Sequence record: NC_048203.1
Length of the DNA stretch: 64,000 nt
Strand: one strand, 5' to 3'
DNA from: Escherichia phage vB_Eco_mar003J3
The notes below the pieces were generated by a model. It saw only the letters and a program-made list of their open reading frames with translations. It searched no databases and was not told the origin of the DNA. The translations under genes and the position numbers were made by a program. This document shows, piece by piece, positions 1,249-22,759 of this stretch (position 1 is its first letter; each line of letters opens with the position of its first letter).

Positions 1249-1278
1249 ATTATATCAAGTTTTAAGGCACTTGAGCAA
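1249..1278 (-). promoter_or_regulatory. sigma70-like promoter (-35 TTGCTC, 18-bp spacer, -10 TATAAT)
   Basis: Read on minus strand; lies upstream of the minus-strand tRNA pair. Confidence 0.4.
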
Positions 1279-1314
1279 GTCAAACTTTAAAGAACTTGCT
1301 CAGTGCTGTATCAG

Positions 1315-1590
1315 TTAATCAAATGAAGGAGTGACTTTCAAAGTGAATGGAAGTTCGAATACCTCTTCACCTTCATCAGTAACAGTGACTACTCGACCCT
1401 CTAGCTTATTCATGCTGATTTCAACATCAGCCGTAGCATCAGGAGCCATACCAGCTTCAACACATTTAGCTTTAATTTCCGGCAGAAGTTCTACATCATA
1501 GAAATAAAGCCATTCAATCTCACCTTCCCAGCCTTCCCAGGATTTACAGATTGCACTTTCAATACCAGTTGTTATAACACGATTTTGCAT
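1315..1590 (-). CDS. hypothetical protein (91 aa)
   Basis: ORF preceded by promoter-like element at 1621-1650. Confidence 0.5.
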   Translation of the reverse strand: MQNRVITTGIESAICKSWEGWEGEIEWLYFYDVELLPEIKAKCVEAGMAPDATADVEISMNKLEGRVVTVTDEGEEVFELPFTLKVTPSFD

Positions 1591-1620
1591 TCGTTAACTC
1601 CTTCATCAATTTATATAACT

Positions 1621-1650
1621 ATTATAACAGAAATCTTAAGTAAAAAGCAA
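1621..1650 (-). promoter_or_regulatory. sigma70-like promoter (-35 TTGCTT, 18-bp spacer, -10 TATAAT)
   Basis: Minus-strand reading of aagcaa ... attata. Confidence 0.45.
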
Positions 1651-1680
1651 GTACATTTTTAAAATTTCTGCTTGGAGGAG

Positions 1681-1953
1681 TTAAACTCCTGATTCTTCAG
1701 CCAGATCAAGCCCAACCAACGTGATTGCCATAATAGCCGCGCCATGTTCCTTCTCTCCTAGCTCTTTAGCTTGAGTGAGAATATTGAGGAATTGCTTTTG
1801 AAAATCTGTAACTTCTTCTGTCATGCCTGCTTCAGCAATAATTCCTTTCAGCATAAAGCGTTGTGCCGTAATTTCAGGATTAGCCATTTGTTTTCTCCAG
1901 TTATTTAGAATGTAAGCCAAACTTAGGATCATAGCGATCATAAGTCGTACCAT
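1681..1953 (-). CDS. hypothetical protein (90 aa)
   Basis: ORF only. Confidence 0.4.
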   Translation of the reverse strand: MVRLMIAMILSLAYILNNWRKQMANPEITAQRFMLKGIIAEAGMTEEVTDFQKQFLNILTQAKELGEKEHGAAIMAITLVGLDLAEESGV

Positions 1954-2038
1954 TAGTTGAAGTCTTGATGCTATGAAAACGACAGTACATAAATTTACGT
2001 AGTGCTTTCTTAATAGCTTTCATTTTATTTCCTTAATT

Positions 2039-2115
2039 TGGTAGGGGTGGTGGGATTCGAACCCACAAAACCTGAATTTTAAGTCCAGTACCTATGCCAA
2101 TTCGATTACACCCCC
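2039..2115 (-). tRNA. tRNA, anticodon TAA (Leu-type) in a short-variable-arm scaffold
   Basis: 77 nt; acceptor GGGGGTG/CACCCCT, discriminator A, CCA, anticodon stem CTGGA/TTCAG with loop CTTAAAA, T-arm GTGGG-TTCGAAT-CCCAC; D stem weak. Confidence 0.55.
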
Positions 2116-2124
2116 ATGTAATCT

Positions 2125-2472
2125 TTAGAGTTCGTAACCCTGAATATATCGAGCAAAACCAGTAATCTCGAACTGAATTGCCCATGCTACTTCCATATGC
2201 TCAATCTTACTAAAATGAGCGTCAGACTGTTCTAGGAAATAACGAGAGATTATAGGGAACTCAATGTCAAAATCTTCCTTATCCATACCATAGAAGAAGT
2301 TTCCAGAAATATTACGAACTTCACGAAAGAAATCCTCAATCTGAAAATCCATCAGAGGATAAGTATATTCCTCTTTGCTATCATCCGTTTGGAAGAAGCG
2401 GAAATGCACAAGGCAAGAGCCAATCAGATTTACTGCTGGAGTAGTGTAAATATCCATGTTAACCTCGATCAA
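2125..2472 (-). CDS. hypothetical protein (115 aa)
   Basis: ORF, acidic. Confidence 0.45.
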   Translation of the reverse strand: MIEVNMDIYTTPAVNLIGSCLVHFRFFQTDDSKEEYTYPLMDFQIEDFFREVRNISGNFFYGMDKEDFDIEFPIISRYFLEQSDAHFSKIEHMEVAWAIQFEITGFARYIQGYEL

Positions 2473-2644
2473 TATCTAGAGAAATTCCAAATTCTGGATT
2501 AATACCAGAACCATTACATGCTGCGCATTCCCACTCTTCAAAACGCATATCGCCAGGTTCAGCATCATTAATAGTACCTGTTCCTTGGCAGTGAGTACAC
2601 ATGCACTCTTCTAGTTCTTGTTTAAGCTCTTGAAACTTAGACAT
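2459..2644 (-). CDS. small zinc-ribbon protein (DnaJ-type CxxCxGxG repeats)
   Basis: 61 aa; CTHCQGTG and CAACNGSG motifs. Confidence 0.5.
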   Translation of the reverse strand: MSKFQELKQELEECMCTHCQGTGTINDAEPGDMRFEEWECAACNGSGINPEFGISLDIDRG

Positions 2645-2661
2645 ATAGTCTCCTAGTTAAT

Positions 2662-2739
2662 TGGTGGCTCCCGGAGGATTCGAACCTACCTACCTTTCGC
2701 TTATGAGGCGACGGCTCATACCAAATGAGCTTGAGAACC
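2662..2739 (-). tRNA. tRNA, anticodon CAT (Met or Ile-lysidine)
   Basis: Acceptor GGTTCTC/GGGAGCC with two G-U pairs, D stem GCTC/GAGC, anticodon loop CTCATAA, TTCGAAT T-loop, CCA. Confidence 0.55.
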
Positions 2740-2744
2740 AAATT

Positions 2745-2833
2745 TGGAGGAAGAAGTGGGAATCGAACCCACAAGGCTATGTTTCAAACCGACAGATTAG
2801 CAATCTGCTGCAATACCGTTATGCTATTCTTCC
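2745..2833 (-). tRNA. tRNA-Ser (anticodon GCT), class II
   Basis: 89 nt; acceptor GGAAGAA/TTCTTCC perfect, anticodon stem GCAGA/TCTGT with loop TTGCTAA, long variable arm, T-arm GTGGG-TTCGATT-CCCAC, CCA. Confidence 0.7.
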
Positions 2834-3343
2834 TTAATTATTTCGGGCATATTCCCCATGAAGTTTCTCTCTCAGTTGAATTAGAGCTTCATTTGCTGCT
2901 TCAGGAGTACTGTGCAGCCCTGCGGAGTATGACTTACCTTTAAACATTATTCTACCCTGCCACTGACCAGATGCTTTGTGGTAGGATACTCCCTTAAATC
3001 CGCTAGTATTCCTAGAAGATTTACTAGCATTATGAGTATTAGTGGTACTATCCGCTGCTCTTAAATTTAAAGGATGTATGTTTAACTTATTGCAGTCTTT
3101 ATGATCAATCATTTCCGGCCTATACCCATAATATAGTATAAATACTATGATATGAGCTAAGTAATCTTGGTGATCAACGTTAACTCTGATATACCCAGAG
3201 CTTTTGTGCAAAGATCCCGCAGGTTTATTGGCAAACTTAGTATTAAATATCTTCTCCTCTCTGGAGTTTCCGGAGAGCGGATTCCACACCAGTACACCAT
3301 CTTCTAAACGGAATCTATAAAGTATAGACTCATAGTCTAGCAT
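2834..3343 (-). CDS. HNH homing endonuclease
   Basis: 169 aa; IDHKDCNKLNIHPLNLRAA HNH core; C-terminal SGFKGVSYHK...W.GRI AP2-like region. Confidence 0.75.
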   Translation of the reverse strand: MLDYESILYRFRLEDGVLVWNPLSGNSREEKIFNTKFANKPAGSLHKSSGYIRVNVDHQDYLAHIIVFILYYGYRPEMIDHKDCNKLNIHPLNLRAADSTTNTHNASKSSRNTSGFKGVSYHKASGQWQGRIMFKGKSYSAGLHSTPEAANEALIQLREKLHGEYARNN

Positions 3344-3376
3344 AAATAGTTCCTAATCTTCCAAATTTATGAATAT

Positions 3377-3405
3377 ATTATACAGAAAATTTCGGCATTA
3401 AGCAA
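3377..3405 (-). promoter_or_regulatory. T5-type early promoter (-35 TTGCTT, 17 bp, -10 TATAAT)
   Basis: Minus-strand reading; part of a roughly 60-bp cassette repeated through the early region. Confidence 0.6.
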
Positions 3406-3413
3406 GTGAAATT

Positions 3414-3710
3414 TTACTGAACATTGCACTGATATACCTGTTTGATACGTGTCACTGACTTCTTAGTTGGGTTGATAGAAGAACCCTGCCACCAACGTGA
3501 CTCTGAGCTAAGAATAGCACCAGGAACAGCCTGCTCTTTTGGCAGAACAATATCAAAACACTGTTCACCCATATTATCTTTAATGTGTGACCAAATATCC
3601 AAAGTAAATCGTTCTAACTTATTACAAACCTGAACTTGACAAAGTTCCTGTTGCGGAGCAGCAAATACAGAAGTAGATACTAGAGTCAGTGCAAGTACAA
3701 TGCGTTTCAT
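3414..3710 (-). CDS. secreted small protein with N-terminal signal peptide
   Basis: 98 aa; MKRIVLALTLVSTSVFA-AP signal-peptidase-I-type leader; several Cys. Confidence 0.55.
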   Translation of the reverse strand: MKRIVLALTLVSTSVFAAPQQELCQVQVCNKLERFTLDIWSHIKDNMGEQCFDIVLPKEQAVPGAILSSESRWWQGSSINPTKKSVTRIKQVYQCNVQ

Positions 3711-3740
3711 GTTTGATTCCTCTCTCGAATTTATAAATAT

Positions 3741-3769
3741 ATTATATAGAAATTTTCTATATTAAGCAA
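3741..3769 (-). promoter_or_regulatory. T5-type early promoter (TTGCTT, 17 bp, TATAAT)
   Basis: Minus-strand reading. Confidence 0.6.
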
Positions 3770-3786
3770 GTGAAAATTTCTGTATA

Positions 3787-3809
3787 ATAGCCCTCGCTTA
3801 GAGGGCTAT
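3787..3809 (-). terminator. hairpin ATAGCCCTC-gctta-GAGGGCTAT just after pnuC stop
   Basis: Perfect 9-bp stem; flanking U-rich run is weak. Confidence 0.4.
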
Positions 3810-3816
3810 AACTACT

Positions 3817-4509
3817 TTATTTGTTAACGCGTACAAAGTATCCTTTATAGGCTCCCATAATAGAGTTACCTAAGAATACTAGCCACATTGCTAGGATTGC
3901 ATAAGATGCACCTGTAGATTGAGTAGTTACAAGCCAAATGTACACAGTACCAATGTTAATAGCAATCCAGATCAGCCACTGCTCGGCATACTGCTTAACC
4001 ATAAGCCACATAGCGATCACACTACCTACCGCAGTAAATGCATCCAACATTGGGAATGGATCAGCCGTAGTAGCTAAGAAACTACCATACCCTAACGTGG
4101 CTACTGCTAGAATCCCTAGAGTCAGCAGAGCTTGGACTTTAGTCAGAATCTTAGTTGGAACATCTGGCAGATTACTTGGCTTATTTTTATGCCATAAGTA
4201 CATTCCATAAAACTGCATAGGAACGTAGTATAGCAGGTTTAGTGCAGCGTTACCATAAAGATCTGCGTTTAAAGCTGTAATACCATAGGTAAGAACACCA
4301 ACTAAGCCCCAAATATAGTTAGAAACACGTCCTTTAGCAACCAAAATAACACAAACTACGTTGGTTATCGCAGTAGCCCAATCTAGAGGTGTACCATTAT
4401 AGTTAGCTAAACTAATGAAGGCAACCGCTATGAACAGCCACAGATATTCCAGAGGTTTCCAGTTTTTAAAGTCATTTACGAGATAGTTAGTCATATTAAA
4501 ACTCTCCAA
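3817..4509 (-). CDS. pnuC: PnuC-family nicotinamide riboside / NMN transporter
   Basis: 230 aa polytopic membrane protein; matches recalled E. coli PnuC in the YGxYxW and PFPxLD...WLxWIxINI regions; 14-nt overlap with upstream nadR-like gene. Confidence 0.85.
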   Translation of the reverse strand: MESFNMTNYLVNDFKNWKPLEYLWLFIAVAFISLANYNGTPLDWATAITNVVCVILVAKGRVSNYIWGLVGVLTYGITALNADLYGNAALNLLYYVPMQFYGMYLWHKNKPSNLPDVPTKILTKVQALLTLGILAVATLGYGSFLATTADPFPMLDAFTAVGSVIAMWLMVKQYAEQWLIWIAINIGTVYIWLVTTQSTGASYAILAMWLVFLGNSIMGAYKGYFVRVNK

Positions 4510-5551
4510 CGTTAAAGTGATGAATCAGCCAGTCTACTGCGTTTACTGCTTCGTCCATACGAACTTTGTAGTCCGGGGAGTCGATGTACACAGTACGCCC
4601 TTCAGGGAACTGATTTGGAAATTCTTTCTTCATCTGCTCGAACAGTTCAGAAGTAATTGAACGATCGGAGTTAATACGTAAACCATCATCTACCCACTTG
4701 ACAGTGGGCGCTAGAACAATTACTAAATCGTAATGTTCTTCTTTTGCAATTGCTGTAACCACAGGGTTCTTACGATGTTCATAAAGTCTGTGGTAGAACT
4801 CAGTAATAAAAGCATTTGTATCCACAAACATGATCTTATTTGCAGTACGTTCTGCCTCAAACTCTAGCTCTTTGTGTCTGAACGCAATTTTACTATAATC
4901 TTCGCTGGTAAGCAGATTTTCGTTACCAACTAGATCAACTTCACAATACGTTCGACCATATTCTTCTACCCACGAAGTGTTGTATAGCTTCGCAAGGTAT
5001 TTTGTTAAAGTAGTCTTTCCTGAGCTTTCAGTCCCAATGATTACAACCCTACGCACGTAATCTTTACGAACTACGCTAGGAAGAAACTCCCAATACTTCA
5101 TAAGATCATTACGAATCATTGTAGCTGAGATTGGAACACGAGTCCGATCAGAATCTACAATATAATGACCAAACTTCGGCAGATATTTCTTATATTCTGC
5201 ATCATAGTCTAGTTCGCTAGAGAAAATGGTGATCTCAGGCAAATGTCCGTAATTTTCATTAAGGATTCTAGCATATTCCGGCCAACCATTCGGATATTCA
5301 GGAATATCATCTTCAATAGTGTACTCTACCGAAATGTGCTCAATATCCGCGTAAGTTTGTTCTAACCAACGAAGTCGATTCTTTAACTGTAATACTTCCT
5401 GATCACGTGTGTTCTGCTTATCCAACCAACGATTATCATGACTAACTACAACAATAACTCGTTCACACATAGTTGCTGCTGTGTTTATTAGGTTAATATG
5501 ACCACGCGTTAATGGTGCGAACTTACCAATTACTAGACCAGTCTTAATCAT
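4496..5551 (-). CDS. nadR: NadR-like bifunctional NMN adenylyltransferase / ribosylnicotinamide kinase, no HTH domain
   Basis: GKFAPLTRGH nucleotidyltransferase motif, then Walker A GTESSGKTT kinase domain; start moved to MIKTG (SD GAGAGGAA) because the ORF-track extension to 5602 contains the promoter. Confidence 0.85.
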   Translation of the reverse strand: MIKTGLVIGKFAPLTRGHINLINTAATMCERVIVVVSHDNRWLDKQNTRDQEVLQLKNRLRWLEQTYADIEHISVEYTIEDDIPEYPNGWPEYARILNENYGHLPEITIFSSELDYDAEYKKYLPKFGHYIVDSDRTRVPISATMIRNDLMKYWEFLPSVVRKDYVRRVVIIGTESSGKTTLTKYLAKLYNTSWVEEYGRTYCEVDLVGNENLLTSEDYSKIAFRHKELEFEAERTANKIMFVDTNAFITEFYHRLYEHRKNPVVTAIAKEEHYDLVIVLAPTVKWVDDGLRINSDRSITSELFEQMKKEFPNQFPEGRTVYIDSPDYKVRMDEAVNAVDWLIHHFNVGEF

Positions 5552-5581
5552 ATTTGATTCCTCTCTCAAATTTATAAATAT

Positions 5582-5610
5582 ATTATACAGAGAATTTAGC
5601 ATTCAAGCAA
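5582..5610 (-). promoter_or_regulatory. T5-type early promoter (TTGCTT, 17 bp, TATAAT) for nadR-pnuC
   Basis: Minus-strand reading. Confidence 0.6.
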
Positions 5611-5769
5611 TCGAATTTTTTAACTTTTTAGTGGAAAAAATCTCAAGGCATTTAGTGGTAGCACGTTGTTGCTACAATAATAGTATATGATTCTAAAGAA
5701 TTAAAGAATTAAATACTAAAGACCTTAGTTGAATAACTTATGGGCTTTTCTTTTGCCTTAAATACAGAA

Positions 5770-5800
5770 AAGCCCACGCTCTCGGAGGAAACGCGGGCTT
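5770..5800 (-). terminator. hairpin terminator after SPFH gene
   Basis: AAGCCC...GGGCTT stem followed on minus strand by UUUCUGUAUUU. Confidence 0.5.
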
Positions 5801-5823
5801 GTTTCGAAGATTACGTGTAACTA

Positions 5824-6768
5824 TTACTTATTACGCATATCCATAATCATCTGGCCATCATAACCAGTACCTACAACAGTCTGAGGAACGCCACCCTGAT
5901 ATTTTTCAGCGCGTTTCATATCAACTTCCAGCTGTTTCCAGCGAATCATCTCTGGAGTGATGGTACGCTGCAGAGCGGTGTTAGCTTCAGCTTCTTTCTT
6001 AGCTGCATACAGTTTAGCATCTGCGTCACGTTCGTTAGCTACTGCCATATTTTCACGAGCAGAACGATCAGCCTCAGCTTGCTTAACTTTCTGCTGTGCT
6101 TCTTGTTCAACACGAGCTAGTTCAGCTTTTGCAGCGTTAACTTGTTCTTCACGAACTTTGGTGTTTTGTACCTGTTCCATGATTACCGGTGGCAGAGTAA
6201 TATCCTGAAGGAATACTTGCTTAACGGTGTAGCCATAAGGACGCGCATACTCTTCTACTTCTTGCTGAATAGCGGTTTGCAGTTGAGCCTGAATCTTAGC
6301 GTCGAACAGATCTTGTGCTTTTGGTACAGACTTACCAAACTCACGAATCGTAGACAGCATCTTCTCTTCAACGTACTTGTTCAGAGCTTGATCCTGAGTA
6401 CCTGCGTTAACACGGTTCATAGGAGCTTTAGCACCATCAAACTGCAACATAACTGTAATGTCAACTGTAGACTTAAACTTATCCTGGCTAGGAACCTGAA
6501 GTTTATCCAGTTTCATAGAAATATCTTTCGTACTAAAAGTATCAAAAGAGGCGAATGGGTTGACAATATGGAACCCCGGCAATACAGGATTAGGACTAAC
6601 TTTACCCAGGAAAGTCTGAGTTTTAACCGTACCATCCTGAACAACTGTATAGGAATTGAGAGCCAGAATAAGAGCGCCAAGACCAACTACAGCACCAACA
6701 CCCCAACGTTTAATAGCACGAATTACTTTTTGATCGGAAGTCAGTTCTTTAGTGTTTTTAGTAAACAT
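5824..6768 (-). CDS. SPFH/band-7 (prohibitin/HflC-like) membrane protein
   Basis: 314 aa; N-terminal TM helix, band-7-like core, long charged coiled-coil C-terminus. Confidence 0.65.
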   Translation of the reverse strand: MFTKNTKELTSDQKVIRAIKRWGVGAVVGLGALILALNSYTVVQDGTVKTQTFLGKVSPNPVLPGFHIVNPFASFDTFSTKDISMKLDKLQVPSQDKFKSTVDITVMLQFDGAKAPMNRVNAGTQDQALNKYVEEKMLSTIREFGKSVPKAQDLFDAKIQAQLQTAIQQEVEEYARPYGYTVKQVFLQDITLPPVIMEQVQNTKVREEQVNAAKAELARVEQEAQQKVKQAEADRSARENMAVANERDADAKLYAAKKEAEANTALQRTITPEMIRWKQLEVDMKRAEKYQGGVPQTVVGTGYDGQMIMDMRNK

Positions 6769-6779
6769 ATATTTCCTTA

Positions 6780-6980
6780 TTATTTAGAAGAGTTAGCTAC
6801 TACAGTTACTTTAGTTGCAGAAATAAACAGGCTAGCATCCACAGCAAATTCAGGAGCTTTGATATCTCCGTTATGAAATATGACTATACCGGAGACTACT
6901 TCAAATGCTAGCGCTGTAACATCGGTGGTATTTACTTGTGAATGTTCACCTACTACTTTTACTATATATCGTGTTTTCAC
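6780..6980 (-). CDS. hypothetical protein (66 aa)
   Basis: ORF only. Confidence 0.4.
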   Translation of the reverse strand: MKTRYIVKVVGEHSQVNTTDVTALAFEVVSGIVIFHNGDIKAPEFAVDASLFISATKVTVVANSSK

Positions 6981-7006
6981 TTTATTTTCCTAGCAGTTAA
7001 TAAAAT

Positions 7007-7081
7007 TGGCCGAGGTGACAGGATTCGAACCTGCATAAAGGAATTTAGAAGACTCCTGCCTATCCCTTAGACTACACCCCG
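7007..7081 (-). tRNA. tRNA-Arg (anticodon TCT)
   Basis: 75 nt; acceptor CGGGGTG/CACCTCG, D stem GTCT/AGGC, anticodon stem GGAGT/ATTCC with loop CTTCTAA, T-arm GCAGG-TTCGAAT-CCTGT, CCA. Confidence 0.7.
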
Positions 7082-7577: not shown

Positions 7578-7649
7578 TACCGACCGTAGGATTCGAACCT
7601 ACATCTTCCACCAGTTACGGCTTGATAATACCAATTATACTAGGACGGC
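7578..7649 (-). tRNA. tRNA-like gene, anticodon arm not resolvable (possible pseudo-tRNA)
   Basis: Acceptor GCCGTCC/GGTCGGT (one mismatch) and T-arm GTAGG-TTCGAAT-CCTAC clear; no 5-bp/7-nt anticodon arm found; no CCA. Confidence 0.4.
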
Positions 7650-7687
7650 AGTGTTACTACATAAGTGATTTCCACACACCACTATTA

Positions 7688-8170
7688 CTAACCAAAGTTA
7701 GTAAATTCTTTATGTAAGGATTCTCTTAATATCTTAGAGGCCTCGAAAGCCTCTTCCGCAGTTTTAAACCCTCTTTTACTGTAATTTTTTCCTTCATGTC
7801 TTACTTGGTATCTCCAGGAAGAGCCTTCCCAACTTACTCCTTTGTACCCAGAAGTATTATTGCATTGTTGGTTTCTATTCGCATTGTTTTGCGATCTAGA
7901 GGCGTCCCTTAGATTATTTTTCCTATTATTTCTAGGATTAGTATCCTTATGATCTACTTCTTCAGGCCTATATCCATAGTACATAATAAACAATAAGACA
8001 TGCAGTTGATAGGTGTCGCCCTGAAATCCCACATCTGGATGTGATTTCTTATTATTGGCACAACACTCTTTCAAACCTTTCTTTGTTTTCCTATATAGTA
8101 TCCCATTATCAGGATCAGCTACAAAATATTTTTCAAGTATTTCTTTAGTAGGGTATTCTTTCCTTTTCAT
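7688..8170 (-). CDS. HNH homing endonuclease
   Basis: 160 aa; EEVDHKDTNPRNNRKNNLR core; SGYKGVSW...WRYQV AP2-like C-terminus. Confidence 0.75.
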   Translation of the reverse strand: MKRKEYPTKEILEKYFVADPDNGILYRKTKKGLKECCANNKKSHPDVGFQGDTYQLHVLLFIMYYGYRPEEVDHKDTNPRNNRKNNLRDASRSQNNANRNQQCNNTSGYKGVSWEGSSWRYQVRHEGKNYSKRGFKTAEEAFEASKILRESLHKEFTNFG

Positions 8171-8176
8171 GAATAT

Positions 8177-8205
8177 ATGATACAGAATTTTGGAACGTTT
8201 AGCAA
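8177..8205 (-). promoter_or_regulatory. sigma70-like promoter (-35 TTGCTA, 17 bp, -10 TATCAT)
   Basis: Minus-strand reading. Confidence 0.5.
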
Positions 8206-8213
8206 ATCAATTT

Positions 8214-8657
8214 TTAATTAAATTCGCCAGCAACCTGAGCAGCAATGCCACCATCGTAACGACCAGGAAACTCTTCCTTAATCGCTTTCATCAGCATACC
8301 CTTTGTAATCCCAGGATTCAGCTTAACTAATTCTGCAAAGTATTTGCGAATCTCAGAATCAGATAGCTGAGGAGGCAAATACTGCTGTAACCATTTGTTC
8401 AGTATATATTCATACTGAGCAGACTGCAAGCTATAATTATCAAGATCTTGACTGTGAAGTTTAGATTTCGTCTGATTAATGCTTTTCAGTTGAGCTTTTA
8501 GATAAGATATAAACTGTTCAGAAGTAATGAAGTCTTTATCAACACGCTGAAGATCTCCGATTATGGTCTGGTAGCTTTTAGCTACTTCTTTATCAGAACC
8601 ATCAAACTTGGATTCCTGCAAAGCCCTACGCAAAACATCTAGAATATTCTCTTCCAT
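8214..8657 (-). CDS. GatB/YqeY-domain protein
   Basis: 147 aa; C-terminal GITKGMLMKAIKEEFPGRYDG resembles the YqeY signature as recalled. Confidence 0.6.
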   Translation of the reverse strand: MEENILDVLRRALQESKFDGSDKEVAKSYQTIIGDLQRVDKDFITSEQFISYLKAQLKSINQTKSKLHSQDLDNYSLQSAQYEYILNKWLQQYLPPQLSDSEIRKYFAELVKLNPGITKGMLMKAIKEEFPGRYDGGIAAQVAGEFN

Positions 8658-8827: not shown

Positions 8828-8858
8828 ATTTCGCTTCCTCTCATTAATTTATGAAAGT

Positions 8859-8887
8859 ATTATACAGAAATTTAAGGCTTTAAGCAA
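8859..8887 (-). promoter_or_regulatory. T5-type early promoter (TTGCTT, 17 bp, TATAAT)
   Basis: Minus-strand reading. Confidence 0.6.
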
Positions 8888-8895
8888 TCGAATTT

Positions 8896-9363
8896 TTAAG
8901 TTTTCTTAACCACAGGTTTATAGAACGTATGGCCTTGAATCTTTGTTGTTTTCTTAAACTTCTTTGTCCAGTACGGTTTATCTTTACCACTATGGAAGTA
9001 TAACGCTCCATGTGTTGGATCTTGTGGTAAATCAACGTAGTATATCACTCTAGCTACATTCTTAGCAGTTTGCCAAGCCGCATCGGTTTTATCAACTTTT
9101 GGTCTCTTAGATACCCAAGAGAACTGGTTAGACTGATATACTACTTTACAGTAAGAATCCGGAAATGTACCAGAGTTAACACGGTTTTTAGTGACCTGTG
9201 CAACTGCAACCATTCCCTTCGTGCCCTCACCTCGGCTCTCAAAATAGACATTTTTTGCAATGCAATCAATCTGTTTAGCGTCGTAGGTCGCATGACTATT
9301 GAAGCTATAGGTTAGGGCAGCTATTAAAAGCAAAGCTGCCTTCATTTTATTTACTCCGGCCAA
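8896..9363 (-). CDS. secreted cell-wall hydrolase (SleB/Hydrolase_2-like)
   Basis: 155 aa; signal peptide MKAALLLIAALTYSFNSHA; NVYFESRGEG...AVAQVTKNRV motif. Confidence 0.6.
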   Translation of the reverse strand: MAGVNKMKAALLLIAALTYSFNSHATYDAKQIDCIAKNVYFESRGEGTKGMVAVAQVTKNRVNSGTFPDSYCKVVYQSNQFSWVSKRPKVDKTDAAWQTAKNVARVIYYVDLPQDPTHGALYFHSGKDKPYWTKKFKKTTKIQGHTFYKPVVKKT

Positions 9364-9668: not shown

Positions 9669-9698
9669 AATAGCCTCGTCTCATCAATTTAAAAATAT

Positions 9699-9727
9699 AT
9701 TATACAGAAAACTAAACTAATTAGCAA
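9699..9727 (-). promoter_or_regulatory. T5-type early promoter (TTGCTA, 17 bp, TATAAT)
   Basis: Minus-strand reading. Confidence 0.55.
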
Positions 9728-10111
9728 ATACATTTTTAAATTGAGAGACTAGTAAACCGATAAACAGCCTAGAGGCGCCACAGGCCATATCTTATGAGCC
9801 ATGTACCTTTGATCTAGGGTTTGAATCATCAACGAATACTTTGCATCTTTTAGCTTTAGAAGGTTAGAAGTTTGAGTGCTTTTAACTTTTCAGCTTTCAT
9901 ACTTGAGCGTTGATCTTTGAAGTTGTGTTGGTACTACCAACGACCTTTTGTTTTTACGTGTCAGATTAAATGTCCGATGTAATAAACATAATCTCCAATA
10001 GATTATACTTTATAGTATGGTCAGCGGTCTTATTTAACCTCGTATTTCAACCGCTGCTGCGAGGTAAGATGCTTGGGCTTTCGTCTACCGATTTACTAGT
10101 CTTTTAAATTA

Positions 10112-10750: not shown

Positions 10751-10805
10751 TATTTGCTTCCTTATATGAAGTTTGAGATTTGAATTTGTTTTAAAAAACG
10801 GTCTA

Positions 10806-10988
10806 TTACAGACCGATTGCCAGCAGAGTGCGCAGAACAGTATCAGAACTGTTATCAATATTCGGATTGGCGCGATTCAGCACATTAAAGATTTTCTGGA
10901 TGCCGGACTGACGCTCAGCCATACGACGCAGACCCAGGTTACGTTTTGCTACTTTACCATTTTTACGGACGTTTTTAGATACTGGCAT
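10806..10988 (-). CDS. small basic protein (60 aa)
   Basis: SD AAGGAAA upstream; K/R-rich. Confidence 0.45.
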   Translation of the reverse strand: MPVSKNVRKNGKVAKRNLGLRRMAERQSGIQKIFNVLNRANPNIDNSSDTVLRTLLAIGL

Positions 10989-11028
10989 AATTATTTTCCT
11001 TTTGTTGTTCTCTCAAATTTATGAATAT

Positions 11029-11057
11029 ATTATACAGAATTTTGGAGCTGAAAGCAA
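11029..11057 (-). promoter_or_regulatory. T5-type early promoter (TTGCTT, 17 bp, TATAAT)
   Basis: Minus-strand reading. Confidence 0.6.
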
Positions 11058-11058
11058 A

Positions 11059-11760
11059 TCAAATTTTGATTTTTTCGATCATGACGGCTACACAATAACT
11101 TTCAACTAAAGCATCGAATGCTGGATCATGCTTCACAGGATAGATTCCATAACGAATGGTGTCCATCTTTTCCATTTTAGCTTTTGCCCAGCTAGTACCT
11201 TCGGCTTCTAGATCTTTATAGCTATAACCAGCTTGCATCCACTGATTACGGAAAGATCGAACGTTACCTAAGTTCCAGAATTTCCACGGAACTATTTCTT
11301 CATGGGTTCCGGCATGGAACGTATTTGCAGAGTAGATTGTCATATCAAACTCTGGGCCATTGCCGTAATACAGAGCATTATCTCCTAGAGACAATTCCAT
11401 AATGTTCTGAGCCATAGAGAAGGCAGCATAATTAGAGCCTACGTCATTAGTGCAGTGATGCTTACCATCACGGAAGGCAATCAGTTTAGGATTACGACCA
11501 TTTAGAGCCTCCATAATATGGAGCGCAGATGGACTGTTTTTAGCTTGATCCATCCAGAATGCAATAGTAGAGGCAGTTACCTTAGCACCCGCATTAAGCT
11601 GATCTTGAACGTCTAGAGTAACGAATACCAGATCAGGATCTTTATCAATTCCGTGCATCGCTACAAAAGCGAAAGAAGGCATTGCAATATGAGTAGTACC
11701 GCAATTTCCTGGAGTACCTAGAGATTCAATGTCTAGCATACCAAAGGGCTTGAATTTCAT
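11059..11760 (-). CDS. DEDDh-type 3'-5' exonuclease (DnaQ-like fold)
   Basis: 233 aa; LDIESLG (motif I D-x-E) and HDPAFDA (H-x4-D). Confidence 0.55.
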   Translation of the reverse strand: MKFKPFGMLDIESLGTPGNCGTTHIAMPSFAFVAMHGIDKDPDLVFVTLDVQDQLNAGAKVTASTIAFWMDQAKNSPSALHIMEALNGRNPKLIAFRDGKHHCTNDVGSNYAAFSMAQNIMELSLGDNALYYGNGPEFDMTIYSANTFHAGTHEEIVPWKFWNLGNVRSFRNQWMQAGYSYKDLEAEGTSWAKAKMEKMDTIRYGIYPVKHDPAFDALVESYCVAVMIEKIKI

Positions 11761-11790
11761 AATTATGTCCTTTATTGTTGTAGAAAACTA

Positions 11791-12003
11791 TTAAAGAGCT
11801 GTCTCTTTAATAGACTCCCACTGTTTGGGGTCTTTCAGAGGAAGTTCCTCTTCTTCAAACAGGTCTGTTTCATTTTCACTAACATCCCAGTTTTCTTCCA
11901 TGATTTCTTCTAGAAGCTCATGTTTAGAAAGACGAGTGTAGTCTCTAGCAGACTTGTGAGTGCTAGCACGGTTAAAATCATTCTTTGCAACGAAGTTACG
12001 CAT
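11791..12003 (-). CDS. small acidic protein (70 aa)
   Basis: ORF; E/D-rich C-terminus. Confidence 0.45.
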   Translation of the reverse strand: MRNFVAKNDFNRASTHKSARDYTRLSKHELLEEIMEENWDVSENETDLFEEEELPLKDPKQWESIKETAL

Positions 12004-12018: not shown

Positions 12019-12036
12019 GAGGGGCTTTCGCCCCCT
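12019..12036 (-). terminator. GGGGC-tttc-GCCCC hairpin terminator
   Basis: Followed on minus strand by CUUAUUUGG; sits 15 nt upstream of next start. Confidence 0.5.
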
Positions 12037-12315: not shown

Positions 12316-12321
12316 CAATCA

Positions 12322-12837: not shown

Positions 12838-12875
12838 TATTTGTTTTCCTTTTTGTTGATCAATTTATGAGATAT

Positions 12876-12904
12876 ATTATACGAAATTTTGAAGAGTTTA
12901 GCAA
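12876..12904 (-). promoter_or_regulatory. T5-type early promoter (TTGCTA, 17 bp, TATAAT)
   Basis: Minus-strand reading. Confidence 0.55.
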
Positions 12905-12920
12905 ATGAATTTTTTAAAAA

Positions 12921-13199: not shown

Positions 13200-13226
13200 A
13201 AAGCCCTCCTCACTTTCAATACGAAT

Positions 13227-13255
13227 ATTATACTAAATTCGAGGGCTTTAAGCAA
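13227..13255 (-). promoter_or_regulatory. T5-type early promoter (TTGCTT, 17 bp, TATAAT)
   Basis: Minus-strand reading. Confidence 0.6.
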
Positions 13256-13275
13256 GTGAATTTTTAAATTATTTA

Positions 13276-14021: not shown

Positions 14022-14023
14022 AT

Positions 14024-14602: not shown

Positions 14603-14632
14603 TATTAAATCCTTCTGTCAAATTAGAAGTAT

Positions 14633-14661
14633 ATTATATTTGAATTTCACTCAGTAAGCAA
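14633..14661 (-). promoter_or_regulatory. T5-type early promoter (TTGCTT, 17 bp, TATAAT)
   Basis: Minus-strand reading. Confidence 0.6.
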
Positions 14662-14677
14662 ATGAAATTTAAATATA

Positions 14678-14695
14678 ATAGCCCCGAAGGGCTAT
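14678..14695 (-). terminator. ATAGCCC-cgaa-GGGCTAT hairpin
   Basis: Directly after membrane-protein stop. Confidence 0.45.
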
Positions 14696-14700
14696 TTGAA

Positions 14701-15054: not shown

Positions 15055-15057
15055 ATG

Positions 15058-15912: not shown

Positions 15913-16439
15913 TAATAAGTCACCAGTTCTTGTACAAAAGATAAACTTTTGTCTGCATTATGCCCTACTGCATAGTCCATCCTAGTTGCTGTTGAATTAG
16001 TCATAGTAATATGATGGTGAAGATGTACATCAGCAGATAATGGTGTAACTGAATTAATAGTAGATACATACGCCATATCTAGATGATTATTGACGTACAT
16101 TTCAAGAAGCAGAGTTGCTCCTCCTAATACTACAGTTACTTCTTCCTTGAGGAAATCAGGCAGACTGTATCCAATATTACTTATGCGTGTGGCTGATCCT
16201 ACAGAGTTAGGTAGTGGTCTATTTGCATAAATAAATAGGTCAGAATCTCCTAGTATTCTTTTTTGCAGAGTCTCAGGGAAGGCTAACCAAGTCCCTGCTC
16301 CTACAATAATATTATCAGGTGCTAGAGAATCCAAAGTAGCATAGAAGATATCTAGTTCTTCTTTGAAAGAACCCCAGGGGAGCTTACCATTAAGGCCGAA
16401 CTCCCCATTCGGCCCAGTTGCATAGATTGCTGCTATCAT
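15912..16439 (-). CDS. dihydrofolate reductase
   Basis: 175 aa; [27 protein letters not shown]-terminus; start overlaps thyA stop. Confidence 0.85.
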
Positions 16440-16948
16440 TTATTAAGTTCCTCTAGTGACGGAATAGTACCTTGAAATTCTTCTAATCGTGCAAAATCCC
16501 CTTGTTTTTGTACTCTAAGGTTATTGGCTTTTTTAATTGCTAAAGAGAGATCTTCATAGTTAAATACTCCCCCATATACACCTTGAATACGAACATACCA
16601 TTTTTGTCTCTGCTTATTCCAACTAATCCCAGAATAGCCTGATTTATTTGGTATTTTTCTGTTTTGCTTATTCTGCTTACTAGTAGATTTCCTAAGATTA
16701 TCCCACTTATTGTTAAGACCATCCCTATCCTTATGGTCTACTTCCTCCGGCATGTAACCCTCCATGTATAGAAAGGCTAACCTATGGGCATACTCTTTGG
16801 TACTATCTATACCTATAACTAAGTACCCGTCTCTCTCATAGCCTGCCACGCTTCCTGCCTTCTGGTTAGCTATGTCGATTAATCTAATAAATTCTCCCGT
16901 TTCCGGGAGATATTTAAATAGTTCCTTTAATCTTTGTTGTGTTACCAT
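16436..16948 (-). CDS. HNH homing endonuclease
   Basis: 170 aa; EEVDHKDRDGLNNKWDNLR; paralog of 39601-40131. Confidence 0.75.
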   Translation of the reverse strand: MVTQQRLKELFKYLPETGEFIRLIDIANQKAGSVAGYERDGYLVIGIDSTKEYAHRLAFLYMEGYMPEEVDHKDRDGLNNKWDNLRKSTSKQNKQNRKIPNKSGYSGISWNKQRQKWYVRIQGVYGGVFNYEDLSLAIKKANNLRVQKQGDFARLEEFQGTIPSLEELNK

Positions 16949-18093: not shown

Positions 18094-18124
18094 TGATTTT
18101 CCTCTTTCTCACTATTTCAGGAAT

Positions 18125-18153
18125 ATTATAGCAAATCTGGTAGCGATTAGCAA
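18125..18153 (-). promoter_or_regulatory. T5-type early promoter (TTGCTA, 17 bp, TATAAT)
   Basis: Minus-strand reading; upstream of nrdB. Confidence 0.55.
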
Positions 18154-18159
18154 GTAAAA

Positions 18160-18642
18160 TTATAAACTATCAAGCTCCAATAGTTTAGCATCGCGCCATT
18201 CTATAGCATCCTCTAATTCTTTAAATGTTTTAGTATGTTTTACACCTTTCCTAGCTATTTGGACTTGATAAGATCCACTTGCTTTTTGGTGTATATTTTT
18301 AATACCTAACTTATTGTCCTTATGTGCCCCAACGTTCTTTCCATTACTAAATCTGTCGGAGGCTAATAAATTAATTGCTCTATTATCATGACGTATTCTA
18401 TTATCATGATCTACTTCTTTTGGGATGTACCCATGAGTAATATAGAATGCTAGGATATGTGCATAGTATTTTGTACCTCTTACCTGCATTACTATGTATC
18501 CTGAGCATTTTTCCAAAGAGCCTGCCTCTTTGCCTGCAAACTTAGTATTAAATGATTTATCTTCTCTAGGTTTGTGGGTAAAGATTCCGGTTTCTGGATT
18601 ATAGTCAAATAACTCAGCTATTTCTTTGTATTTTTCTTCCAT
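18160..18642 (-). CDS. HNH homing endonuclease
   Basis: 160 aa; EVDHDNRIRHDNR core; inserted between nrdA and nrdB. Confidence 0.75.
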   Translation of the reverse strand: MEEKYKEIAELFDYNPETGIFTHKPREDKSFNTKFAGKEAGSLEKCSGYIVMQVRGTKYYAHILAFYITHGYIPKEVDHDNRIRHDNRAINLLASDRFSNGKNVGAHKDNKLGIKNIHQKASGSYQVQIARKGVKHTKTFKELEDAIEWRDAKLLELDSL

Positions 18643-18673
18643 AATCTAAAATTACAGCCATTATAGACCTAAT

Positions 18674-18693
18674 AAAGGGGCGAGAGCCCCTTT
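18674..18693 (-). terminator. AAAGGGGC-gaga-GCCCCTTT hairpin
   Basis: Between nrdA stop and HNH start; U-rich on both strands. Confidence 0.45.
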
Positions 18694-18698
18694 ATTTA

Positions 18699-21092: not shown

Positions 21093-21112
21093 TCTGCAAA
21101 TACTTTTTTACA

Positions 21113-21601
21113 TTATTCATGTCTGGCGAATTCGCCATGTAAACTTTCTCGCAGCTTAACTGCATACTCATTAGCTTCTTCTGGAGAATTGAAACCACTC
21201 TTAGAGTAACATTTACCAGCAATAGTAATTTTTACCTGCCAGTATGTGCCATTCTTATATACGCCTTTATAGCCAGAAGAATTATCTTTTCTTAGTCTAG
21301 TATTACATGAGTTTTGGGTATGGGTTGCTTCTCTTAAATTTCCTGGTCTATTATTAAGAGTATTACCGTCTTCATGATCTACTATGTTTTCTGGTTGATA
21401 CCCCCTACCCATAATAAAGGAGATAATATGGGCATAGTAATATGTGCCCTTAAAAGATACTTGTACATACCCTGATGAAGTAGCCGATCCTGCTCTCTTA
21501 ACTTTACCTGATTTCAGGCGTCTCATTAAGATTCCAGTAGAGTCATCTATAAAGAATACTTTCTCCAGCTCTTCTTTGGGCGGGTAGATTAATTTTCCCA
21601 T
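21113..21601 (-). CDS. HNH homing endonuclease
   Basis: 162 aa; IVDHEDGNTLNNRPGNLR; SGYKGVYKNGTYWQ AP2-like. Confidence 0.75.
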   Translation of the reverse strand: MGKLIYPPKEELEKVFFIDDSTGILMRRLKSGKVKRAGSATSSGYVQVSFKGTYYYAHIISFIMGRGYQPENIVDHEDGNTLNNRPGNLREATHTQNSCNTRLRKDNSSGYKGVYKNGTYWQVKITIAGKCYSKSGFNSPEEANEYAVKLRESLHGEFARHE

Positions 21602-21663
21602 TATAACTTCCTAATACAAAGGATAAAAGAGCCTGGATATTTTCATACCCAGGCTCATCTGTC

Positions 21664-21906
21664 TTACCATTTAGTTTTATCGACCATATCTCTTAATTTC
21701 TCTCGTATTTCCTTAGCCATTAAAATATCTACGGAAGTATTCAATTCATTATAGTTGAACGGTCGATTTGGATTAGAGGCTACAATTTTCCATGCTAGAG
21801 AAGTCTTAGGACTTTCTTCACCCTCTTTACGGGTGATCATGTTTGCAGCACTCAACGAAGTGCGGTGAATTTTAGTTTTGCGATGTAGATGTACGACATT
21901 TCCCAT
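21664..21906 (-). CDS. hypothetical protein (about 80 aa)
   Basis: Track ORF 21664-21984 trimmed to Met at 21906 to avoid 77-nt overlap with phoH. Confidence 0.3.
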   Translation of the reverse strand: MGNVVHLHRKTKIHRTSLSAANMITRKEGEESPKTSLAWKIVASNPNRPFNYNELNTSVDILMAKEIREKLRDMVDKTKW

Positions 21907-21907
21907 A

Positions 21908-22666
21908 TTACACCAGCCCCATCTCTTTAAAGATGTCATAGAATGCTTTAGATTCTCGGGAACGTACGTTCTCAATAAGTTCAATCATTGAGAATGGAGA
22001 GTAATCATACCTCTTATACACTTCCATTAGAAGTGCTAAGCCTGAGTCACCCTTAATGTCTTTCTGAGCGATATCTCCGCAAATGACTAAGCGACAATCT
22101 TGTCCTACACGAGTTAGGAGACAGATCATTGCTTCGACTGAGATATTCTGAGCTTCATCGACAATCACATAGGAGTTGTTGAAAGTTCGTCCACGAGCAT
22201 GCTCGATAGCCAGGAATTTAACTTTCTGACGTTCTACATACCCTTTATATGCCTGATCACCTATAGCCCATTTCATGCCATCTGCAATCGGTTCCAGCCA
22301 AGGTTCTAGCTTCTCAGCCAGGTCACCCGGTAGCATCCCAAGAGATTTGCCTAGAGGTTCGTTAGGACGCACTAAAATCACTTGCTCAATATTAGAGCGA
22401 GGATTAGTAAGTTCCTGAGCAGCAAGAACGGAAGGGATAAAAGTCTTACCCGTACCTGGTTCACCAATACCAACGGTAATGGTGTTGTTCTTGATCATAT
22501 TGATATATGATTTTTGCTCTTTGTTTTTACCTTCTAGGGACTTAGCAACGGGAATAGCAAAATCAGAGAAGTTTCCCTGAATAATGTTATCTTCATAGTT
22601 GCTGTTACGCTTTCTTGACCCGTTACGGGTTTCTCTTTTCTGACGCAGTTTTCCCATAAATAACAC
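21908..22666 (-). CDS. phoH: PhoH-like ATPase
   Basis: 252 aa; Walker A GEPGTGKT, Walker B VIVDEAQN. Confidence 0.85.
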   Translation of the reverse strand: MLFMGKLRQKRETRNGSRKRNSNYEDNIIQGNFSDFAIPVAKSLEGKNKEQKSYINMIKNNTITVGIGEPGTGKTFIPSVLAAQELTNPRSNIEQVILVRPNEPLGKSLGMLPGDLAEKLEPWLEPIADGMKWAIGDQAYKGYVERQKVKFLAIEHARGRTFNNSYVIVDEAQNISVEAMICLLTRVGQDCRLVICGDIAQKDIKGDSGLALLMEVYKRYDYSPFSMIELIENVRSRESKAFYDIFKEMGLV

Positions 22667-22730
22667 TCCTATAGTGTACTTCGCTAACAGAGGATCAACA
22701 AAAAGATCTTGTTTATCAACTTACAAATAT

Positions 22731-22759
22731 ATTATACCAATATCTACAGTAAAAAGCAA
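22731..22759 (-). promoter_or_regulatory. T5-type early promoter (TTGCTT, 17 bp, TATAAT)
   Basis: Minus-strand reading; divergent from the nrdD promoter. Confidence 0.6.

What the first reader, a model, noticed from the sequence alone, without database searches (positions are those of the whole stretch)
1249..22759. Fourteen copies of a conserved T5-type promoter cassette on the minus strand
A roughly 60-bp element recurs upstream of minus-strand genes at 1249, 1621, 3377, 3741, 5582, 8177, 8859, 9699, 11029, 12876, 13227, 14633, 18125 and 22731. Each has -35 TTGCTT or TTGCTA, a 17-bp spacer (18 bp at 1249 and 1621, where the -35 at 1249 is TTGCTC) and -10 TATAAT (TATCAT at 8177), with conserved AT-rich flanks and often a TCTCTC-type leader. 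This matches the recalled consensus of strong T5 early promoters and divides the region into many short transcription units, several bounded by palindromic hairpins.
Basis: partly seen in the sequence, partly recalled or inferred. Interest (0 to 1): 0.4.

Follow-up and report, generated by a model that had tools for sequence, protein, structure and literature searches.

The report
T5-type early promoters, phage genome
The repeated 60-bp element is real and is the well-known strong early promoter of phage T5 and its relatives, found here in a T5-like Salmonella/E. coli phage, so the finding is correct but ordinary.

Summary
All 14 minus-strand sites exist at the stated coordinates, with the stated hexamers and spacers. 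TTGCTW-N17/18-TATAAT occurs 17 times in the window against 0.17 expected. Conservation runs from about -47 to +14 (about 60 bits).

The window is a T5-like phage (Demerecviridae, Epseptimavirus; about 95% identical to several Salmonella/E. coli phages). Ten of the 14 sites match by sequence, and one more by position only, features that the T5 GenBank records annotate as promoters or as "repeat c". Two match named T5 promoters (P-H207, P-D/E33).

The same cassette continues on the plus strand with about 11 more copies (24.9-45.6 kb), including near-identical orthologues of P-N25, P-N26 and P-K28a. T5's named late and pre-early promoters lack the TTGCT -35 and the ATATT/CATAAATT downstream part, so the cassette is specific to the early class. 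A Vibrio T5-like phage carries the same architecture.

One point needs correction. Most cassettes abut the stop codon of the upstream gene with no terminator. They are therefore internal booster promoters in two long divergent gene arrays, not boundaries of short separate units. Only three have an upstream hairpin. The "TCTCTC leader" is the complement of the GAGAGAGG Shine-Dalgarno region.

Verdict: already known; low interest.

The parts
1229..1290 (-). Early-promoter cassette (TTGCTC, 18-bp spacer, TATAAT). Predicted +1 is about 1242. It drives tRNA-Tyr (1044-1124) and tRNA-Glu (961-1035); the leader has no Shine-Dalgarno sequence.
   Evidence: 93% identical over 71 nt to T5 'putative early promoter T5P19'
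1601..1662 (-). Early-promoter cassette (TTGCTT, 18-bp spacer, TATAAT). It lies upstream of the 91-aa ORF 1315-1590.
   Evidence: orthologue of T5P20
3357..3417 (-). Early-promoter cassette (TTGCTT, 17, TATAAT). It now lies upstream of an HNH-AP2 homing endonuclease ORF (2834-3343), followed by tRNA-Ser and tRNA-Met.
   Evidence: 68.9 bits. No T5 DNA homologue. Present in IrmaTschudi, where it lies directly in front of tRNA-Ser.
3721..3781 (-). Early-promoter cassette upstream of the 98-aa ORF 3414-3710. It is preceded by a terminator-like hairpin at 3787-3809.
5562..5622 (-). Early-promoter cassette upstream of the NadR-like (4496-5551) and PnuC-like (3817-4509) genes.
   Evidence: It is 62/63 identical to the T5 copy that carries 'repeat c' copy 2, while both flanks are unrelated.
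8168..8217 (-). Early-promoter cassette with -10 TATCAT. Its downstream half has been replaced by an inserted HNH endonuclease ORF (7688-8170), whose ATG lies at the predicted +1.
8839..8899 (-). Early-promoter cassette; orthologue of T5 P-D/E33 (T5P22).
9679..9739 (-). Early-promoter cassette; orthologue of T5P23. It lies upstream of the 105-aa ORF and the cell-wall hydrolase homologue.
11009..11069 (-). Early-promoter cassette; orthologue of the T5 putative promoter at 36186 in the st0 record (= 'repeat c' copy 4).
12856..12916 (-). Early-promoter cassette; orthologue of the named T5 promoter P-H207 (T5P25). It lies upstream of the DUF7022 gene.
13207..13267 (-). Early-promoter cassette; orthologue of T5P26.
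14613..14673 (-). Early-promoter cassette, preceded by a hairpin at 14677-14696. It lies upstream of a proteasome-like ORF and RNase H. It is the positional counterpart of T5P27.
18105..18165 (-). Early-promoter cassette upstream of the nrdB-dhfr-thyA block. It is the only copy with a canonical TGn extended -10.
   Evidence: (T5 putative promoter 41858)
22711..22771 (-). Early-promoter cassette, the first of the minus-strand arm. A leader of about 67 nt precedes the phoH-like gene.
   Evidence: (98.5% to T5 putative promoter 45431)
24923..45620 (+). Plus-strand arm of the same promoter family. The -35/-10 cores lie at 24935-24963, 25677-25705, 29315-29343, 32854-32882 (= P-N25), 33868-33896 (= P-N26), 35085-35113, 36451-36479 (= P-K28a), 40990-41019, 45471-45499 and 45571-45600.
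3787..3809 (-). Terminator-like hairpin ATAGCCCTCTAAGCGAGGGCTAT, directly upstream of cassette 3741.
14677..14696 (-). Terminator-like hairpin AATAGCCCTTCGGGGCTATT, directly upstream of cassette 14633.
5770..5800 (-). Intrinsic-terminator-like hairpin (12-bp stem plus T-run), about 160 nt upstream of cassette 5582.

Best explanation
These are sigma-70 early-class promoters of a T5-like phage, read by unmodified host RNA polymerase. Each cassette stacks almost every known strength determinant. There is an A-tract (TTAAAAATT) at -47 to -39 that acts as a proximal UP element for the alpha C-terminal domains. There is a -35 TTGCT(T/A), and a 17-bp spacer that is AT-rich at -21 to -16. There is a perfect -10 TATAAT and an AT-rich 6-bp discriminator (A at -6 in all 14 copies, ATATT in 7 of them). 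Transcription starts at an A 7 nt after the -10. The initial transcribed sequence is AUAAAUUUGAGAGAGG, and its 3' half is the Shine-Dalgarno sequence of the first gene, whose start codon lies at about +22 to +35. Fourteen such promoters fire leftward and about eleven fire rightward from a strand switch at 22.8-22.95 kb. They drive the early genes for nucleotide metabolism, tRNAs and replication. Because most have no terminator in front of them, they add to read-through transcription along the array rather than defining isolated units. What is shown here: the sequence architecture, its statistical significance, its class specificity and its orthology to T5 promoters. What is inferred from T5 work: the start sites, the strength and the early timing in this particular phage.
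For: - The pattern occurs 17 times against 0.17 expected. The conserved block runs from -47 to +14. Matrix hits score 48-69 bits against a shuffle maximum of 16, and every hit is co-oriented with the genes.
- The window is a T5-like phage.
- T5 records annotate the orthologous sites as promoters, including the named P-H207, P-D/E33, P-N25, P-N26 and P-K28a.
- The cassettes are 92% identical to T5, against 79% for the 250 nt upstream.
- Leaders of 21-34 nt have the Shine-Dalgarno sequence inside the conserved block for 11 of the 12 ORF-driving copies; 22731 has a leader of about 67 nt.
- T5's named late promoters (P-G25, P-J5) and pre-early promoters (P-D/E20, P-H22) lack TTGCT and ATATT/CATAAATT.
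- The same architecture is present in Vibrio phage Rocket24 (Thalassavirus), and the core pattern also occurs in Klebsiella and Proteus Demerecviridae.
- Literature. Klimuk et al. 2020 (PMC7472727) report -35, -10, a UP element and an ATATT discriminator in all known T5 early promoters, with primer-extension validation of early timing. Hsu & Han 2025 (PMC12464699) describe N25 as TTGctt / 17 bp / TATAAT with a UP element, an AT-rich spacer and a 6-bp discriminator. In T5-like phage SP15, a phage tRNA-Tyr promoter drives rescue better than the E. coli tRNA promoter does (bioRxiv 10.1101/2023.03.15.532788).
Against: There are no transcript data for this phage. Three copies deviate in a hexamer or spacer: 8177 has TATCAT, 1249 has TTGCTC with an 18-bp spacer, and 1621 has an 18-bp spacer. 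Only 7 of 14 carry the exact ATATT discriminator. In Klimuk et al. only 11 of 19 in-vitro-defined T5 promoters gave primer-extension signals in vivo, so not every copy need be active. The TG preceding the -10 in most copies sits at -14/-13, not the canonical -15/-14, so it is not a standard extended -10.
Confidence: 0.93

Rival explanations
1. The cassettes are primarily dispersed recombination or mobile regulatory modules, like the promoter-early stem-loop (PeSL) cassettes of T4-type phages. On this view their repetition exists to shuffle gene modules, and promoter activity is secondary.
For: Cassette 5582 is 62/63 identical to a T5 copy while both flanks are unrelated. Cassettes 33868 and 35085 also sit at homology boundaries. 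The T5 record itself labels the -10/leader part as 'repeat b' and 'repeat c'. Two cassettes carry an upstream hairpin.
Against: Break-points between the window and T5, IrmaTschudi and KFSSM are not enriched near cassettes: 8 of 52 end-points lie within 60 nt, against 10.7% expected, P = 0.19. Most indels are homing-endonuclease-sized insertions. The conserved positions coincide one-for-one with RNA polymerase contact elements. Orthologous copies keep their positions from T5 to Epseptimavirus.
Confidence: 0.05
2. The class-specific parts are the binding site of a phage-encoded factor, acting either on RNA polymerase or on the 5' leader RNA, that times early expression. These parts are the invariant C at the fourth -35 position, the A/T discriminator and the +1 to +9 AUAAAUUUG. 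On this view the cassette is a regulatory address label as well as a promoter.
For: Late and pre-early T5 promoters lack these parts. The +1 to +9 motif is kept, in diverged form (5 of 9 positions), in the tRNA-driving copy 1249, which has no Shine-Dalgarno sequence, and more closely in Vibrio-phage copies. Klimuk et al. 2020 suggest that the ATATT discriminator underlies the differential effect of gpT5.026.
Against: N25, H207 and related promoters are extremely active with pure host holoenzyme and in uninfected cells (own knowledge of the Bujard-lab work; the N25 literature). No factor is therefore required for activity. gpT5.026 has only weak effects in vitro. No operator-like dyad symmetry was seen in the cassette.
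Confidence: 0.15
3. The matches are chance occurrences in AT-rich intergenic DNA.
For: The genome is about 39% G+C. A generic sigma-70 scan finds no excess of promoter-like sites: 45 against 56 expected.
Against: The specific pattern occurs 17 times against 0.17 expected. The matrix scores are 30-50 bits above any shuffle. Strand co-orientation is perfect. The sites are conserved in T5.
Confidence: 0.01

Closest known systems
Bacteriophage T5 early promoters (P-N25, P-N26, P-H207, P-K28a, P-D/E33; Gentz & Bujard 1985; annotated in AY692264 and AY587007)
   Same: The architecture is the same: A-tract UP element, TTGCT(T/A), 17-bp spacer, TATAAT, AT-rich discriminator and an ATAAATTTGAGAGAGG leader. 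The genomic positions are the same. Identity to the T5 copies is 90-98%.
   Different: The host phage is an Epseptimavirus, not T5. Cassettes 3377 and 3741 lie in a module with no T5 DNA homology (NMN transporter, NadR and a homing endonuclease). Copy 8177 has been truncated by a homing-endonuclease insertion and carries TATCAT.
T5 late (P-G25, P-J5) and pre-early (P-D/E20, P-H22) promoters
   Same: They are also sigma-70 promoters with A-rich upstream blocks. The P-G25 orthologue is present in the window at 62902-62930 (-).
   Different: They have TTGACA or TTGATA at -35, different discriminators and no CATAAATT leader. The 14 cassettes do not belong to these classes.
T4-type PeSL cassettes (promoter-early stem-loop; Arbiol et al. 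2010; cited from own knowledge)
   Same: Both are repeated early sigma-70 promoters in front of many small ORFs in a plastic early region, and some have an adjacent stem-loop.
   Different: The sequence is unrelated. Only 2-3 of the 14 have a stem-loop. No enrichment of mosaic junctions at the cassettes was detected.
E. coli rrn P1-type UP-element promoters
   Same: Both have an A/T-rich UP element upstream of the -35 that boosts RNA polymerase recruitment.
   Different: The rrn promoters have a GC-rich discriminator and a 16-bp spacer. Here the discriminator is AT-rich and the spacer is 17 bp.

Membership tests
T5 early-class sigma-70 promoters | -35 and -10 hexamers with 17 +/- 1 bp spacing and a near-perfect TATAAT | tested here: met
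   13 of 14 have TATAAT and one has TATCAT. Twelve have a 17-bp spacer and two have 18 bp.
T5 early-class sigma-70 promoters | -35 of the TTGCT(T/A) type rather than TTGACA | tested here: met
   TTGCT is present in 14 of 14 copies, with C invariant at the fourth position. The named late and pre-early T5 promoters have TTGACA or TTGATA.
T5 early-class sigma-70 promoters | A-rich UP-like block upstream of the -35 | tested here: met
   Information peaks at -47 to -37, with consensus TtAAAAaTTcA. The UP element is described for T5 early promoters and for N25.
T5 early-class sigma-70 promoters | ATATT discriminator common to all known early promoters (Klimuk et al. 2020) | tested here: inconclusive
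   Exact ATATT occurs in 7 of 14 copies. A at -6 occurs in all 14. The other 7 have AT-rich variants such as ATTTA, AGTTA, ACTTT, ATATC, ATTCG, ATACT and ATTCC. T5's own N25 has AGATT.
T5 early-class sigma-70 promoters | Sequence or positional orthology to promoters mapped or annotated in T5 | tested here: met
   Ten of 14 match T5 promoter or 'repeat c' features by BLAST, including P-H207 and P-D/E33. Site 14633 matches T5P27 by position only, and cassette 5582 matches a T5 copy that sits in front of a different gene.
T5 early-class sigma-70 promoters | Location in the early region, co-oriented with early genes | tested here: met
   All copies lie upstream of, and co-oriented with, nrdA/B, thyA, dhfr, RNase H, phoH, tRNAs and other early genes.
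T5 early-class sigma-70 promoters | Transcription actually starts there, with early kinetics, using host sigma-70 holoenzyme | not testable with these tools
   Only literature on T5 itself is available.
T4-type PeSL mobile regulatory cassettes | Promoter plus stem-loop unit flanking ORFs, and coinciding with recombination junctions | tested here: not met
   A stem-loop is adjacent at only 2 of 14 cassettes. Junction enrichment gives P = 0.19.

The most novel reading that the evidence does not exclude
The early-class-specific parts of the cassette may do more than add strength. These parts are the invariant C in the -35, the AT-rich discriminator and the +1 to +9 AUAAAUUUG, which is retained in diverged form in the tRNA-driving copy and more closely in Vibrio T5-like phages. 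They could be a family-wide recognition label. A phage factor (a gpT5.026-type RNA polymerase binder, or an unknown leader-RNA-binding protein or nuclease) could use it to switch the whole early regulon off together. Homing endonucleases that insert exactly at +1 or +19 of cassettes may exploit the same label.
Probability: 0.15. Interest if true: 0.45.

Novelty: already known. Interest (0 to 1): 0.1.

Why it matters
It matters little as a discovery. T5 early promoters have been textbook strong promoters since the 1980s (N25 drives the pQE expression vectors), and the T5 GenBank records already annotate the orthologous sites and even their repeated nature. The practical value is for annotation. 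The 25 or so cassettes give a ready promoter map for an Epseptimavirus genome whose public relatives mostly carry no regulatory annotation. They show that early genes are expressed from two divergent arrays with many internal booster promoters. They also mark which accessory modules have their own early promoter: the tRNA-Tyr/Glu unit, the NadR/PnuC module and the homing endonucleases.

Tried and rejected
1. Cassettes as recombination junctions. I compared break-points of window-versus-T5, IrmaTschudi and KFSSM alignments with cassette positions and found no significant enrichment (8 of 52 end-points, P = 0.19). The idea was rejected as a main function.
2. Canonical extended -10. Most copies have CTG directly abutting TATAAT, so the G is at -13. 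Only 18125 has TGn. The idea was rejected.
3. Additional degenerate minus-strand copies in the long gaps. A half-site matrix scan found none. The site at 4396 (TTGCCT-17-TATAAT) lies inside the PnuC gene and lacks the UP element and leader, so it is probably chance.
4. Rfam gathering-threshold scan of the whole window. It found only tRNAs, and nothing overlaps the cassettes.
5. Gentz & Bujard 1985 (PMC214212) could not be read because it is not held. Statements about in-vitro mapping of the named T5 promoters therefore rest on the GenBank feature names, on Klimuk 2020 and on my own knowledge.
6. The Klebsiella (L005), Proteus (L006) and Citrobacter (L008) loci were fetched, but their files never reached the scripting machine. 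Only pattern counts are available for L005 and L006.
Full report
**1. Observation**

The pattern TTGCTW-N17/18-TATAAT occurs 17 times in the 64-kb window. Dinucleotide-preserving shuffles give 0.17 on average and never more than 2. The two variant sites are also present as described:
- 1249 has TTGCTC, an 18-bp spacer and TATAAT.
- 8177 has TTGCTA, a 17-bp spacer and TATCAT.

I aligned the 14 copies on the -10. Conservation starts at about -47 and fades after about +14, with about 60 bits in total. The consensus is tTtAAAAaTTcA-n-TTGCTt-(17)-...AAatTTctg-TATAAT-ATaTtt-aTAAatTggagAgAg.

A weight matrix built from 12 minus-strand copies scores those copies 48-69 bits. Shuffled sequence reaches at most 16 bits. 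A second matrix, covering only the -10, discriminator and leader, finds no further minus-strand copy in 1-23 kb.

**2. What the window is**

The first 24 kb is about 95% identical to many Salmonella and E. coli phages of the genus Epseptimavirus (Demerecviridae, Markadamsvirinae), which are T5-like phages. Gene content downstream of the cassettes is the classical T5 early region:
- phoH-like, nrdA, nrdB, dhfr, thyA, RNase H, a metallopeptidase and a cell-wall hydrolase;
- a NadR/PnuC module;
- several HNH homing endonucleases;
- six tRNA genes.

**3. Orthology to T5 promoters**

The T5 records AY692264 and AY587007 carry 'regulatory/promoter' features. Some are named after the experimentally studied promoters. 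BLAST of those features against the window gives:

| Window site | T5 feature |
|---|---|
| 12876 | P-H207 (T5P25) |
| 8859 | P-D/E33 (T5P22) |
| 1249 | T5P19 |
| 1621 | T5P20 |
| 9699 | T5P23 |
| 13227 | T5P26 |
| 11029, 18125, 22731 | 'putative promoter' features |
| 8177 | 'repeat c' copy 3 |
| 5582 | 62/63 identical to the T5 copy carrying 'repeat c' copy 2, which sits in front of a different gene |
| 14633 | T5P27, by position only |

Sites 3377 and 3741 lie in a segment (2841-5665) with no T5 DNA homology. They are conserved in the Epseptimavirus IrmaTschudi.

The T5 annotators had already marked the -10/leader part as dispersed 'repeat b' and 'repeat c'. The recurrence itself is therefore on record.

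Against T5, the cassettes are 92% identical, while the 250 nt upstream of them are 79% identical.

**4.

The same matrix finds plus-strand copies:
- 32854 (59 bits; 97% identical over 75 nt to P-N25);
- 33868 (P-N26);
- 35085;
- 36451 (P-K28a);
- 45471 and 45571;
- 40990;
- 25677 and 29315;
- 24935, which has the core only.

Every copy is co-oriented with its genes. The two arms diverge from a strand switch at 22.8-22.95 kb.

**5. Class specificity and breadth**

T5's named late promoters (P-G25, P-J5) and pre-early promoters (P-D/E20, P-H22) have TTGACA or TTGATA at -35. They lack the ATATT discriminator and the CATAAATT leader. The window's orthologue of P-G25 is at 62902-62930 (-). The cassette is therefore the early-class form.

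Klimuk et al. 2020 state that all known T5 early promoters share -35, -10, a UP element and an ATATT discriminator. They validate early kinetics by primer extension.

Hsu & Han 2025 describe N25 as TTGctt / 17 bp / TATAAT with a UP element, an AT-rich spacer and a 6-bp discriminator with G at -5. This places +1 at the A of ATAAATTT, 7 nt after the -10.

The same architecture is present in Vibrio phage Rocket24 (Thalassavirus). The core pattern is also present in Klebsiella and Proteus Demerecviridae loci. The cassette is therefore a family-wide consensus and not a recent repeat expansion.

**6. How it works**

*Shown here:*
- The positions of the conserved elements match the known RNA polymerase contact elements.
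- For 11 of the 12 ORF-driving copies the start codon lies 27-40 nt after the -10, and the GAGAGG/GAGG Shine-Dalgarno sequence sits inside the conserved block. Copy 22731 has a longer leader of about 67 nt.
- Copy 1249 drives tRNA-Tyr and tRNA-Glu. It keeps a diverged form of the +1 to +9 motif (ATCTAATTTGG) but not the Shine-Dalgarno sequence. This suggests that the 5' part of the leader serves transcription (promoter escape) and the 3' part serves translation.

*Inferred from T5 work:*
- Recognition by host sigma-70 holoenzyme.
- Very high strength.
- Early timing after second-step DNA transfer.

A phage tRNA-Tyr promoter from the T5-like phage SP15 is functional and stronger than the E. coli tRNA-Tyr promoter (bioRxiv 10.1101/2023.03.15.532788). 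I could not verify that it is the exact orthologue of 1249.

**7. Transcription-unit claim**

For five cassettes (3377, 8177, 8859, 11029 and 18125), the stop codon of the upstream gene lies only 1-8 nt from the -35, inside the A-tract. There is no room for a terminator there.

Hairpins directly upstream exist only at 3741 (3787-3809) and 14633 (14677-14696). A strong terminator-like hairpin lies 160 nt upstream of 5582 (5770-5800). Other terminator-like hairpins lie within units, away from cassettes: 21629-21656, 18671-18696, 12020-12035, 11788-11813 and 10799-10815.

Most cassettes are therefore internal, additive promoters on read-through arrays. The 'many short units bounded by hairpins' reading is only partly right.

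**8. Rivals**

- Chance is excluded.
- A recombination or mobile-cassette role, analogous to T4 PeSLs, was tested by comparing alignment break-points with cassette positions. Eight of 52 end-points fall within 60 nt of a cassette, against 10.7% expected (P = 0.19). Individual cases such as 5582 are suggestive.
- A role as a class-specific label for a phage factor cannot be excluded. It is not needed to explain activity.

**9. Verdict**

The feature is already known: these are T5 early promoters in a T5-like phage. Interest is low.

Noticed in passing
window 7688-8217 (-): An HNH homing-endonuclease ORF (160 aa, Pfam HNH_3) is inserted inside cassette 8177. Homology to T5 stops right after TAT(C/A)ATATATTCAT. 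The endonuclease's ATG sits at the predicted transcription start, so its mRNA would be leaderless. IrmaTschudi and KFSSM have the same junction with an intact TATAAT.
   Followed up: partly
window 2834-3417 (-): An HNH-AP2 homing-endonuclease ORF is inserted immediately after about +19 of cassette 3377. In the endonuclease-less relative IrmaTschudi, the same cassette sits directly in front of tRNA-Ser. This is the second homing endonuclease that has landed just behind an early-promoter start site.
   Followed up: partly
window 323-881, 16440-16940, 18118-18683, 21112-21625: Indels of about 500 bp relative to T5 and other relatives coincide with ORFs of 160-187 aa (303-866, 16436-16948, 18160-18642, 21113-21601). 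They are probably further free-standing homing endonucleases, but only their size and position were checked.
   Followed up: no
window 22805-22988: The divergent control region between phoH-like and nrdD holds two perfect 12/12 sigma-70 consensus promoters back to back. One is at 22872-22901 (-) (TTGACA-18-TATAAT) and has a GC-rich discriminator, CCCGCGCCC. The other is at 22960-22988 (+) (TTGACA-17-TATAAT). There is also a TTGCTT-17-TATGAT site at 22805-22833 (+), which faces the minus-strand promoter. The T5 record annotates only the plus-strand promoter.
   Followed up: partly
window 62902-62930 (-): This is the orthologue of the T5 late promoter P-G25 (TTGATA-17-TATAAT). Its leader is ATTAAGAGGAGAAATTAACTATG, which closely resembles, from my own memory, the ribosome-binding site used in pQE/pDS expression vectors.
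   Followed up: partly
window 245-316 (-) and 7578-7649 (-): Rfam's tRNA model gives two weak extra hits (33 and 35.5 bits) that ARAGORN did not call. The first corresponds in position to tRNA-Phe of the relatives, and the second to a tRNA pseudogene annotated in T5.
   Followed up: no
window 5562-5622 versus T5 37729-37757 region: Cassette 5582 is 62/63 identical to a T5 cassette, yet both flanks are unrelated. T5 has a 'DNA primase' ORF downstream, whereas the window has NadR and PnuC. This is an example of one promoter cassette fronting different gene modules in related phages.
   Followed up: partly
L004 (Vibrio phage Rocket24) 36709 (+) versus window 1249 (-): The cassettes in front of tRNA clusters in the Vibrio phage and in this window share a leader variant (TTATCTAAATT / TTATCTAATTT) that differs from the ORF-driving copies.
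   Followed up: no
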